Of a stretch of DNA of 64,000 bases, positions 41,660 to 42,055 are shown in pieces. The DNA comes from Dictyostelium discoideum (lineage: Eukaryota): positions 2,272,001-2,336,000 of the forward strand of contig CM000151.3 in the NCBI GenBank assembly GCA_000004695.1, written 5' to 3'. A program made the position numbers and the translations under genes. The notes under the pieces are model-generated. The model saw nothing but the letters and a program-made list of their open reading frames with translations, made no database searches and was not told the origin of the DNA. The stretch's first letter is position 1. Every line of letters starts with the position of its first letter.

Positions 41660-42055
41660 TTAATTAAAACATCTTTGACCAGAGGACGGATTATAACACC
41701 TATTCCCACATTGTTCATAACCAAATGAACAAACTAAACCACCTGGATAACATCTTTGTCCTGATGATGGACTATAACACCTATTTCCACATGCTTCGTA
41801 ACCAAATGAACAAACTAAACCACCTGGATAACATCTTTGACCTGATGATGGACTATAACACCCATTTCCACATGCCTCGTAACCAAATGAACAAACTACA
41901 TCACCTGGATAACATCTTTGACCTGATGATGGACTATAACACCTATTTCCACATGCTTCGTAACCAAATGAGCAAACTACATCACTTGCACTTTCAACAT
42001 TTTTTAAAAAAAATAAAATACTAAACAATATAAATAAAAATAAAATTAATTTCAT
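41660..42055 (-). CDS. Secreted cysteine-rich peptide with 4 tandem 30-aa repeats (131 aa)
   Basis: The signal-like N-terminus MKLILFLFILFSILFFLKNVESA is followed by four copies of VVCSFGYEACGNRCYSPSSGQRCYPG(D/G) (C-x5-C-x3-C-x8-C). The underlying 90-bp DNA repeats are almost identical. The ORF-track start at 42145 is upstream junk; the true ATG is at 42055. Confidence 0.6.
   Translation of the reverse strand: MKLILFLFILFSILFFLKNVESASDVVCSFGYEACGNRCYSPSSGQRCYPGDVVCSFGYEACGNGCYSPSSGQRCYPGGLVCSFGYEACGNRCYSPSSGQRCYPGGLVCSFGYEQCGNRCYNPSSGQRCFN
41700..42000. repeat. About 90-bp tandem repeat x3.5 (coding, inside the Cys-rich peptide gene)
   Basis: The unit ccacctggataacatctttgWcctgatgatggactataacacc… recurs with very few substitutions. 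Confidence 0.7.

What the first reader, a model, noticed from the sequence alone, without database searches (positions are those of the whole stretch)
41660..42055. Secreted four-fold 30-aa cysteine-repeat peptide with near-identical 90-bp DNA repeats
A signal peptide precedes 4x VVCSFGYEACGNRCYSPSSGQRCYPG(D/G). Each unit has four Cys with C-x5-C-x3-C-x8-C spacing. I recognise no knottin, granulin or hevein signature. The DNA repeats are almost identical even at synonymous sites, so they arose by recent expansion or are kept alike by concerted evolution. Small secreted Cys-repeat peptides in a bacterivorous amoeba are candidate antimicrobial or signalling peptides. A copy of this gene's promoter region has been duplicated at 48.3 kb.
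Basis: seen in the sequence. Interest (0 to 1): 0.55.

Follow-up and report, generated by a model that had tools for sequence, protein, structure and literature searches.

The report
Secreted four-module CBM52-like amoeba protein
A small gene of the social amoeba Dictyostelium discoideum encodes a secreted protein made of four copies of a 27-residue, two-disulfide module; the module is a divergent relative of a known fungal beta-glucan-binding module (CBM52), so this is most likely a small sugar-binding protein and not a new kind of antimicrobial peptide.

Summary
The gene is real: window 42055..41660 (-), one exon, 131 aa. It has a signal-peptide-like N-terminus followed by four tandem units. 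The units are 27 aa / 81 bp, not 30 aa / 90 bp, and the Cys spacing is C-x6-C-x3-C-x8-C, not x5. Units 1-3 are 95% identical in DNA; unit 4 is only 80-83% identical to them. The window is D. discoideum AX4 chromosome 2.

The module is not an orphan. A profile of it finds 208 cluster representatives in a tardigrade, a chytrid, other eukaryotes and bacteria, and many of them pass Pfam PF10645 (Carb_bind = CBM52). Profile-profile comparison with verified CBM52 units gives 98.4% probability. The AX4 protein alone scores 16 bits against a cut-off of 25.

The locus turns over fast. The gene is absent at the syntenic site in two other D. discoideum assemblies, frameshifted in one D. cf. discoideum assembly, and expanded to 4-5 copies in another.

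The most likely function is a secreted multivalent polysaccharide (beta-glucan) binder. An antimicrobial-peptide precursor is unlikely. The "promoter copy" at 48.3 kb is a degenerate gene fragment plus an (AAT)n tract.

The parts
41660..42055 (-). Complete single-exon coding sequence: 131 aa plus the TAA stop at 41660-41662. CDS GC is 33%, against 20.6% for the window.
   Evidence: The identical product is called in a second assembly. dN/dS is 0.36-0.49 against the 131-aa paralogues in D. cf. discoideum.
41990..42055 (-). Signal-peptide-like N-terminus, residues 1-22 (MKLILFLFILFSILFFLKNVES). Cleavage is inferred after VES (V at -3, S at -1).
   Evidence: Read from the sequence. The same N-terminus is present in the paralogues. 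Bacterial homologues carry AxA-type signal peptides directly before their first unit. No SignalP run was possible.
41900..41980 (-). Unit 1, VVCSFGYEACGNRCYSPSSGQRCYPGD
41819..41899 (-). Unit 2, VVCSFGYEACGNGCYSPSSGQRCYPGG; 95.1% DNA identity to units 1 and 3
41738..41818 (-). Unit 3, LVCSFGYEACGNRCYSPSSGQRCYPGG
41663..41737 (-). Unit 4, LVCSFGYEQCGNRCYNPSSGQRCFN. This is the older, diverged terminal unit: 80-83% DNA identity to units 1-3, and closest to unit 4 of a D. cf. discoideum paralogue (85%).
42056..42700 (-). Intergenic stretch between the stop of the upstream copine gene and the ATG. It must hold the copine 3' end and this gene's promoter. The 240 nt nearest the ATG are 73-81% identical to the upstream regions of the D. 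cf. discoideum paralogues.
42319..42589 (+). Degenerate gene fragment (42319-42472) plus the start of the (AAT)n tract (42473-42656). It is an inverted copy of 48194-48435.
48194..48435 (-). Partner of the fragment above, 84% identical. It lies in a gene-like region between the 558-aa gene and the LUD-domain gene. No Cys-repeat gene is next to it.

Best explanation
This is a genuine, single-exon D. discoideum gene. Its product enters the secretory pathway, loses a 22-residue signal peptide, and folds into an ~11 kDa rigid rod built from four tandem 27-residue modules.

Each module has four Cys (two disulfides), an invariant Gly after Cys2 and an invariant Tyr after Cys3. [quoted passage not shown]

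In the predicted structure every module contributes two beta-hairpins. One forms around C2-G-x-x-C3-Y. The other bridges the unit boundary, from C4 to C1 of the next unit. The four units therefore form one continuous hairpin stack. I infer that one disulfide staples each hairpin to the next (C1-C3 and C2-C4). The rod displays a regular row of Tyr/Phe side chains.

I infer that it works as a free-standing multivalent lectin. The four modules bind side by side along a long polysaccharide chain, with affinity coming from avidity. By homology the ligand is beta-1,3-glucan; cellulose or a microbial wall glucan are alternatives. It would act outside the cell, on prey or competitor cell walls or on the amoeba's own matrix.

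The tandem array is old: four units are shared with a sister lineage. Units 1-3 have been homogenised by gene conversion or unequal crossing-over in the AX4 lineage. The gene sits in a duplication-prone interval and is gained, lost and amplified between strains.

Shown: gene reality, repeat anatomy, homology to CBM52, predicted fold, and strain variation at the locus. Inferred: signal-peptide cleavage, disulfide pairing, sugar binding and the ligand.
For: Gene reality:
- Intact ORF, coding-like GC, and an identical gene in a second assembly.
- Three intact 131-aa relatives with all 16 Cys conserved and dN/dS 0.36-0.49.

Homology to CBM52:
- A 54-column profile of the unit pairs finds 208 cluster representatives at E<=1e-3, 85 of them at <=1e-10.
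- Among them are proteins that pass Pfam PF10645 on their own: P0054 from a chytrid at 160.8 bits, P0050 at 97.6, P0104 at 59, P0131 at 54, P0176 at 54, and P0031 from a tardigrade at 40.
- hhalign of our family against Pfam-verified CBM52 unit pairs gives probability 98.4%, E 8e-15.
- An HMM built from those verified units scores the AX4 mature protein at 49.2 bits. None of 1000 shuffles that keep the Cys positions reaches this (maximum 26.2).
- PF10645 is equated with CBM52 in bioRxiv 10.1101/2025.07.03.663104.

Function of CBM52:
- The Eng1 CBM consists of three ~50-aa repeats. Deleting it reduces activity on insoluble substrate and disrupts targeting to the septum (PMC3627985, citing Martin-Cuadrado 2008).
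- A free-standing secreted protein made of a signal peptide plus CBM52 exists in M. oryzae: GBP, MGG_05232 (same preprint).

Fold:
- AlphaFold2 on the mature protein gives pLDDT 95.3 and pTM 0.75, with a regular hairpin pattern that runs through the linkers.
- A canonical PF10645 protein (P0113) gives the same strand pattern.

Extracellular location:
- Bacterial homologues have signal peptides and sit in ordinary chromosomal context.

Aromatic content:
- 11 Tyr and 5 Phe in 108 residues.
Against: - The AX4 protein itself is below Pfam's gathering score: 16.2 bits against 25.
- Its C3-C4 loop is one residue longer than in most CBM52 units, x8 against x7.
- No binding datum exists for this subfamily.
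- The same module occurs in a tardigrade astacin protease and in a tardigrade protein that UniProt names 'tenascin-X', where it may be merely structural.
- There is no expression evidence; no paper was found for the locus.
- The gene is dispensable in at least two strains, at the syntenic site.
- Disulfide pairing could not be read, because model coordinates are not returned by the tools.
Confidence: 0.55

Rival explanations
1. Structural or spacer protein. The disulfide-stapled rod is a mechanical element of the extracellular matrix (slime sheath, stalk or spore coat), or a cross-linker. It has no specific sugar-binding site, like other tandem two-disulfide modules such as CREMP, the Dumpy DPY module and EGF arrays.
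For: - The predicted rod is rigid.
- The same module is used in long arrays in large tardigrade and other eukaryotic proteins: 10-21 units in P0031-P0037.
- CREMP and DPY are precedents for two-disulfide tandem modules as structural fibres (PMC12723725).
Against: - The protein is only 11 kDa, with four units and no polymerisation or anchoring domain.
- Homology is to a module with demonstrated glucan binding (PMC3627985).
- It is absent at the syntenic site in two strains, which is odd for a core matrix component.
Confidence: 0.2
2. The protein is a precursor or polyprotein that is cut into four ~27-residue disulfide-rich peptides, and these act as antimicrobial or signalling peptides.
For: It is a small secreted Cys-rich tandem repeat in a bacterivore. 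Copy number varies between strains, as is common for immunity-type genes.
Against: - The junctions (YPGD/VV, YPGG/LV) carry no dibasic or other recognisable processing site.
- Net charge of the mature protein is about +1, and 0 to +1 per unit, so it is not cationic.
- AlphaFold2 places a beta-hairpin across every unit boundary, with pLDDT above 90 and pTM 0.75. Cutting there would destroy the fold.
- Homologues range from one unit to more than 20 units and are fused to enzymes.
Confidence: 0.1
3. The gene was recently acquired from bacteria. It is a bacterial-type small secreted protein whose role in the amoeba is incidental or still evolving.
For: - The x8 loop with Gly (P-x-x-G-x-x-C) is shared by the D. 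discoideum-group genes and by many bacterial two- and three-unit proteins (plus P0035, of unknown origin), while most hits, including all those traced to a named eukaryote, have x7.
- Units are 50-56% identical to those of Reyranellaceae proteins, which sit in a conserved bacterial context.
- Presence among strains is patchy.
Against: - The Heterostelium album unit (x7) is closer to the AX4 unit, about 70% identity by hand alignment of sequences, than any bacterial unit is.
- Other amoeba-like eukaryotic proteins with the module exist (P0032, P0042).
- Codon usage and the signal peptide are typically dictyostelid.
- The gene family sits in a syntenic locus in two lineages.
- 27-residue units carry too little signal for a tree.
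Confidence: 0.08
4. Decaying or non-functional ORF: a recently duplicated fragment in a rearranging region that happens to remain open.
For: - The region is full of gene fragments.
- There is a frameshifted copy in L005 and a 5'-truncated copy in L001.
- The gene is absent in two strains.
- No transcript evidence was found.
Against: - The 396-nt ORF is intact, with all 16 Cys, the Gly, the Tyr and the signal peptide conserved.
- dN/dS is 0.36-0.49 against two intact paralogues.
- The upstream region is conserved at 73-81%.
Confidence: 0.05

Closest known systems
CBM52 / Pfam PF10645 'Carb_bind' (S. pombe Eng1 C-terminal beta-1,3-glucan-binding module; M. oryzae secreted GBP MGG_05232)
   Same: - Same repeat logic: C-x6-C-G-x2-C-Y-x-P-loop-C, in tandem.
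- Profile-profile probability is 98.4%.
- An HMM of verified CBM52 units scores the AX4 protein at 49 bits.
- Predicted secondary-structure pattern is the same.
- It is extracellular.
- A free-standing 'signal peptide + CBM52' protein is known in M. oryzae (bioRxiv 10.1101/2025.07.03.663104).
   Different: - Below Pfam's gathering score: 16.2 against 25 bits.
- The C3-C4 loop is one residue longer and carries a conserved Gly.
- It is not attached to a glycoside hydrolase.
- It is found in an amoeba, and the subfamily also in bacteria, not in fungi.
- Sugar binding is untested.
Galaxin-like repeats (Pfam PF24748)
   Same: - Neighbouring family in sequence space. P0030 passes PF24748 (31.5 bits) and also scores 21 bits on PF10645.
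- P0031 and P0050 hit both models.
- They share the A-C-G-x2-C-Y-x-P core.
   Different: Galaxin repeats have a di-cysteine (CC) after the loop, where this family has a single Cys followed six residues later by the next unit's Cys. The AX4 protein gives no PF24748 hit at E<=10.
Granulin (beta-hairpin stack held by a disulfide ladder)
Tandem two-disulfide modules of structural proteins (avian CREMP Cx4Cx5Cx8C, Drosophila DPY Cx5Cx5Cx4C, N-terminal two-thirds of EGF)
   Same: Four Cys per ~25-residue module, small beta-hairpins, tandem arrays. The C1-C3 / C2-C4 pairing established for CREMP (PMC12723725) is the pairing I infer here.
   Different: - The Cys spacing is different.
- CREMP modules are beads on flexible linkers, whereas this protein is predicted to be a continuous rod (pTM 0.75).
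- There is no sequence or Foldseek match.
[quoted passage not shown]
   Same: Amoebozoan, signal peptide, small, tandem Cys-rich domains, and experimentally a glucan (cellulose) binder. It is a functional precedent for the proposed role.
   Different: The relationship was not tested, because no Leo sequence was available to the tools. The paper reports that the 8-Cys domain has no homologues outside Acanthamoeba.

Membership tests
CBM52 / Pfam PF10645 (Carb_bind) | Scores at or above Pfam's gathering threshold (25 bits) on the PF10645 HMM | tested here: not met
   The AX4 protein scores 16.2 bits, E 0.013. The D. cf. discoideum paralogue scores 16.5 bits, Heterostelium 12.6 and the bacterial P0004 12.2.
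CBM52 / Pfam PF10645 (Carb_bind) | Demonstrable sequence homology to proteins that do pass PF10645 | tested here: met
   - The A1 profile retrieves P0054 (160.8 bits on PF10645), P0050 (97.6), P0104 (59), P0131, P0176 and P0031.
- hhalign of A1 against A2 gives 98.4%, E 8e-15. Nine of the 10 A2 segments hit PF10645 on their own.
- The A2 HMM scores the AX4 protein at 49.2 bits, against a maximum of 26.2 in 1000 Cys-fixed shuffles.
CBM52 / Pfam PF10645 (Carb_bind) | Tandem units with the framework C-x6-C-G-x2-C-Y-x-P-x4-C (C-x6-C-x3-C-x7-C) | tested here: inconclusive
   The C1-C2 and C2-C3 spacings, the Gly after C2, the Tyr after C3 and the Pro are all present. The C3-C4 spacing is x8 in all four AX4 units, against x7 in most hits to the profile. 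Some units of the Pfam-passing protein P0050 are also x8.
CBM52 / Pfam PF10645 (Carb_bind) | Same three-dimensional fold as a bona fide member | tested here: inconclusive
CBM52 / Pfam PF10645 (Carb_bind) | Binds beta-1,3-glucan | not testable with these tools
   This needs recombinant protein and polysaccharide pull-down or ITC.
Granulin | 12-Cys motif with four CC pairs; Pfam Granulin hit | tested here: not met
Galaxin-like repeats (PF24748) | Repeat with a di-cysteine after the C-Y-x-P loop; PF24748 hit | tested here: not met
   There is no hit for the AX4 protein and no CC.
Knottin / hevein (CBM18) / EGF / LDL-receptor class A | Six or eight Cys per domain with the family's spacing; Pfam or PDB sequence hit | tested here: not met
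   There are four Cys per unit. Pfam gives nothing but PF10645. The best PDB sequence hits are the LDLa module of the relaxin receptor at E 0.25 and hainantoxin at E 0.57. The best Foldseek hit has E 0.43.
Secretory protein (classical signal peptide) | Positively charged n-region, hydrophobic h-region of 7-15 residues, small residues at -3/-1, no other membrane segment | tested here: met
   K2; the h-region LILFLFILFSILFFL; V-E-S|A. The same N-terminus occurs in all intact paralogues, and bacterial homologues have AxA signal peptides. This was read by eye; no SignalP was available.

The most novel reading that the evidence does not exclude
The D. discoideum-group genes and a set of small bacterial secreted proteins form a distinct, so far unnamed x8-loop subfamily of CBM52-like modules. 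The subfamily has moved between soil bacteria and social amoebae. In the amoeba it is a strain-variable, copy-number-variable secreted lectin: absent, single, or 4-5 copies at one locus. It would shape which microbes are bound, eaten or carried. Separately, CBM52 as a whole would adopt a granulin-like disulfide-laddered hairpin stack, a fold class not yet solved for any carbohydrate-binding module.
Probability: 0.15. Interest if true: 0.6.

Novelty: new member of a known kind. Interest (0 to 1): 0.33.

Why it matters
- It removes an apparent orphan. The repeat is a divergent CBM52-type module, and that gives a concrete, cheap experiment: polysaccharide pull-down with an 11 kDa protein.
- It shows that this module reaches far beyond fungal glucanases. 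It is found in dictyostelid amoebae, a tardigrade and several groups of bacteria, mostly below Pfam's threshold, so current annotation misses it.
- It provides a confident predicted structure for a carbohydrate-binding family that has no solved structure.
- It flags a locus where a secreted putative lectin is present, absent or amplified between closely related amoeba strains. This is the pattern expected for genes involved in interactions with microbes. None of this is surprising enough to overturn anything.

Tried and rejected
- Pfam on a single 27-aa unit gave no hit.
- PDB sequence searches with the protein and with the profile gave only chance-level hits to Cys-rich peptides.
- Foldseek against the PDB gave nothing below E 0.43. 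The afdb50 library was unavailable.
- NCBIfam gave only a far sub-threshold match: NF041328, 15 bits against a cut-off of 100.
- Exact look-up of the protein in the 15-billion-sequence collection failed. The same look-up also failed for two paralogues that are called genes in their assembly. Absence from that collection is therefore not evidence that the gene is unannotated in AX4.
- Guessed dictyBase identifiers (DDB_G0274051-57) returned no papers.
- The third homology search, with a broad 46-row alignment, was unproductive: 17 candidates and 1 hit.
With P0016 it found only four alphaproteobacterial MAGs.
- The bacterial gene neighbourhood (pcm, surE, serS, tatABC, luciferase-like oxidoreductases) is conserved but gives no functional hint.
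- I considered recent expansion of the repeat and rejected it. Four units are shared with the D. cf. discoideum paralogues, and unit 4 is old.
- I considered a collapsed assembly and rejected it.
- The + strand ORF at 41725-42024 (99 aa) is a by-product of the repeat on the opposite strand.
- Disulfide connectivity could not be derived, because model coordinates are not exposed.

Full report
**What is there**

The minus strand of window 41660-42055 carries an uninterrupted ORF of 131 codons plus TAA. It starts with MKLILFLFILFSILFFLKNVES. That is one basic residue, a 15-residue hydrophobic core, and Val at -3 / Ser at -1. Four head-to-tail units follow.

Tandem Repeats Finder reports 41668-41979 with period 81, 3.9 copies, 92% matches and score 526. 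The unit is therefore 27 residues / 81 bp, not 30 / 90. Counting residues gives C-x6-C-x3-C-x8-C, then x6 to the next unit's first Cys, not C-x5-C.

Units 1-3 differ pairwise at 4 of 81 nt, two synonymous and two non-synonymous changes each. Unit 4 differs from them at 13-15 of 75 nt. CDS GC is 33% in a window of 20.6% GC.

The mature protein of 108-109 residues has 16 Cys, 18 Gly, 16 Ser, 11 Tyr, 5 Phe, 7 Arg and 6 acidic residues. Its net charge is about +1, and it has no N-x-S/T sequon that is not blocked by Pro.

**Where it is**

Neighbouring ORFs are exact matches to D. discoideum AX4 proteins on the 8.48-Mb chromosome 2 record. These are cofilin-2 (DDB_G0274059 / DDB_G0272568), DDB_G0274049 / 0272877, and a FNIP-repeat protein (DDB_G0274061 / 0272644). 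Each carries two gene identifiers. From general knowledge, this marks the inverted duplication of chromosome 2 in AX3/AX4, so AX4 probably has two copies of this gene.

On the minus strand the order is copine (44520-42701), this gene, then two cofilin-like genes. A 223-aa gene lies on the plus strand (40521-41388) in between.

The exact 131-aa product is a called gene in another assembly, GCA_054883475.1 (locus L002). That assembly differs from the window by a few substitutions and indels over 12.4 kb (99.4-99.9% identity). It is identical to the window over the gene and about 650 bp on its upstream side and 280 bp on its downstream side. The four-unit number is therefore not an assembly artefact.

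**The 'promoter copy'**

Window 42319-42589 (+) matches 48435-48194 in inverted orientation at 84%. The segment lies 264-534 bp upstream of the ATG.
- From 42473 onward it is an (AAT)n microsatellite.
- The ~150 unique bases read as a degenerate coding fragment (…NTNTLKEITKTM…). Its better-preserved counterpart lies at 48.4 kb, and in another strain it falls inside a called gene.
- The 260 bp nearest the ATG have no second copy in the window, and no second Cys-repeat gene exists in the window.

The similarity is real, but it is a relic of segmental duplication, not a duplicated promoter.

**Relatives in amoebae and turnover of the locus**

The syntenic interval of D. cf. discoideum GCA_054859235.1 (L001) has the same flanking genes: PCO_ADO, LUD domain, copine and cofilins. 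It holds:
- two intact 131-aa four-unit genes, about 80% identical to AX4;
- a divergent three-unit gene (P0002);
- a 5'-degraded copy annotated with a foreign first exon (P0001);
- a short fragment.

A second D. cf. discoideum assembly (L005) has one three-unit copy with a one-base frameshift. Two further assemblies labelled D. discoideum (L003, L004) have only 694 and 398 bp between the copine gene and the 225/226-aa gene. These stretches contain no trace of the gene. Whether those strains carry it elsewhere could not be checked.

Heterostelium album has a related small protein, PPL_04718.

Between AX4 and the two intact paralogues, dN/dS is 0.36-0.49, and every Cys, the Gly after C2 and the Tyr after C3 are kept. 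The upstream 240 nt are 73-81% identical. This is a functional gene family under moderate constraint in a birth-and-death locus.

**Concerted evolution**

The four-unit architecture is shared by AX4 and the sister lineage, and AX4 unit 4 is closest to a unit 4 there (85%). The array is therefore old. Yet AX4 units 1-3 are 95-96% identical to one another, and only 87-95% identical to any unit of the paralogues. Their synonymous divergence is about 2 differences in roughly 17 sites. That is about half the dS between the genes, which is 0.23-0.26. This fits homogenisation of units 1-3 by gene conversion or unequal exchange in the AX4 lineage. The numbers are small, and strong codon bias in this AT-rich genome inflates synonymous similarity.

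**What the unit is**

Taken alone, the AX4 protein gives only a sub-threshold Pfam hit: PF10645 'Carb_bind', 16.2 bits against a cut-off of 25. It gives no PDB sequence hit.

A profile of nine unit pairs (A1) was searched exhaustively against 1.84 billion representatives. It found 208 proteins at E<=1e-3 and 85 at <=1e-10. These include:
- tardigrade proteins with 12-21 units, one of them fused to an astacin protease;
- a chytrid protein;
- amoeba-like eukaryotic sequences;
- many small bacterial proteins consisting of a signal peptide plus 1-6 units.

Several of these pass PF10645 strongly on their own: 160.8, 97.6, 59, 54, 54 and 40 bits.

I aligned ten unit pairs from such Pfam-passing proteins (A2); nine of the ten hit PF10645 individually. 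Two tests against this set agree:
- hhalign of A1 against A2 gives 98.4% probability, E 8e-15.
- An HMM built from A2 scores the AX4 mature protein at 49.2 bits. 1000 shuffles that keep the Cys positions average -8.5 bits and never exceed 26.2.

The unit is therefore a divergent homologue of PF10645, which is CAZy family CBM52 (bioRxiv 10.1101/2025.07.03.663104). One Pfam 'domain' of 49 positions spans about one and a half to two of the 27-residue units.

Most family members have x7 between C3 and C4. The D. discoideum-group genes, many bacterial proteins and one protein of unknown origin have x8 with a Gly in the loop.

The bacterial Reyranellaceae-type proteins sit at a fixed chromosomal position beside pcm-surE-serS-tatABC. 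They are genuine bacterial genes.

The Heterostelium unit (x7) is about 70% identical to the AX4 unit, by hand alignment of sequences. The bacterial units are about 56% identical. Descent within Dictyostelia with a one-residue insertion is therefore more economical than recent transfer.

**Predicted structure**

AlphaFold2 on the mature protein, with a 14-row alignment, gives mean pLDDT 95.3 and pTM 0.75. Each unit contributes two short beta-hairpins. One is formed by …x-x-C2 / G-N / x-C3-Y. The other is formed by …R-C4-Y / P-G-G / x-V-C1 of the next unit. Hairpins therefore straddle every unit boundary, and the four units form one continuous stack.

Single-unit and multi-unit homologues always have 4n Cys. 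This argues for pairing within units. C1-C3 / C2-C4 would staple each hairpin to the next, and it is the pairing established for CREMP modules (PMC12723725).

**How it most likely works**

The Eng1 CBM of S. pombe consists of three ~50-residue repeats. Its deletion lowers activity on insoluble substrate and abolishes targeting to the septum (PMC3627985, citing Martin-Cuadrado et al. 2008). From my own recollection of that paper's abstract, not verified here, it needs beta-1,3-glucan chains of about 30 residues. M. oryzae secretes a free-standing 'signal peptide + CBM52' protein described as a glucan-binding protein (bioRxiv 10.1101/2025.07.03.663104).

By homology, I propose that the amoeba protein is a secreted, multivalent, rod-shaped glucan binder. 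Four modules with a regular row of Tyr/Phe would lie along a long polysaccharide chain. The target could be fungal or bacterial wall glucan, or the amoeba's own cellulose-rich matrix. Small Cys-rich tandem lectins that bind cellulose are known in another amoebozoan (Leo lectins, PMC6541295), though any relationship to them was not tested. Presence/absence and copy-number variation suit an environment-facing function better than a core one.

**Why not an antimicrobial-peptide precursor**

- There are no processing sites at the unit junctions.
- The charge is near neutral.
- Hairpins cross every junction in a confidently predicted rigid rod.
- Homologues are fused to enzymes or built as long arrays.

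The remaining rivals are a purely structural role, recent bacterial origin and a decaying ORF. They are weighed in the rival list.

**Verdict**

The gene is a divergent new member of a known module family (CBM52-like), not a new class of peptide. Function is inferred, not shown. Interest is modest. The useful points are:
- an assignment that current Pfam thresholds miss;
- the wide, unannotated spread of the module into amoebae, tardigrades and bacteria;
- a confident fold prediction for a family that has no solved structure;
- a strain-variable locus.

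Noticed in passing
window 47900-49150: This stretch is a mosaic of degenerate gene fragments. 48783-48866 is 89% identical to the 5' end of the copine gene at 44462-44545; its reverse complement reads MTTPI…KPRVELRFKCS. 48867-49148 resembles the copine upstream region. 48780-48740 (-) reads [16 protein letters not shown], a cofilin-like fragment. 48435-48194 is the inverted partner of 42319-42589. The copine / Cys-repeat / cofilin interval is a hot spot of segmental duplication.
   Followed up: partly
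L001 (D. cf. discoideum GCA_054859235.1) 10001-18342: The orthologous interval is expanded. It holds a copine gene plus a copine fragment (11237-11607). The Cys-repeat genes lie at 10298-10687 (5'-degraded, annotated with a spliced foreign first exon), 14291-14686, 15021-15335 (three divergent units) and 17947-18342, with a fragment at 12602-12697. The repeat genes are interleaved with extra cofilin genes.
   Followed up: partly
L003 6693-7347 and L004 6840-7198 (D. discoideum GCA_054859385.1, GCA_054859355.1): The Cys-repeat gene, its upstream fragment and the (AAT)n tract are all missing between the copine gene and the 225/226-aa gene. In their place is a short unrelated sequence (CACCCCGTCAAACAGT…) and a partial duplicate of the 3' end of the 225-aa gene. 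Its origin was not determined.
   Followed up: partly
L005 6850-7147 (D. cf. discoideum GCA_054859205.1): This is an uncalled three-unit copy, P0002-like, with an intact signal peptide but a one-base frameshift after unit 1 (…CSEIGLCI*). It is either a pseudogene or a homopolymer sequencing error.
   Followed up: partly
L006-L008, L011-L014 (alphaproteobacterial MAGs): Small secreted two-unit homologues (81-94 aa) occupy a fixed chromosomal slot, convergent with pcm-surE and close to serS and tatABC. They are unnamed in Pfam and NCBIfam.
   Followed up: partly
P0036, P0031 (Hypsibius exemplaris): A tardigrade astacin metalloprotease carries about 12-14 of these modules. A protein that UniProt names 'tenascin-X' carries 21. 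The module is used in animals as well.
   Followed up: no
window 40428-40497, 40746-40811, 42473-42656, 48194-48329: Long simple repeats: a T70 run, (TTA)22, (AAT)~61 and (ATT)~45. The T-run region is where the window and the second assembly (L002) differ in length.
   Followed up: no
window 35287-36849 and 37231-38703: Two tandem FNIP-repeat genes. The second is an exact match to DDB_G0274061. The 520-aa product of the first is not in the protein collection in this exact form.
   Followed up: no
protein collection behind search for homologous proteins: All three intact four-unit 131-aa proteins (AX4 and two from L001) are missing from the clustered protein collection, although they are called genes in their assemblies. 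The irregular relatives P0001 and P0002 are present. A repeat or low-complexity filter may have removed them, so negative results from that collection should be read with care.
   Followed up: no
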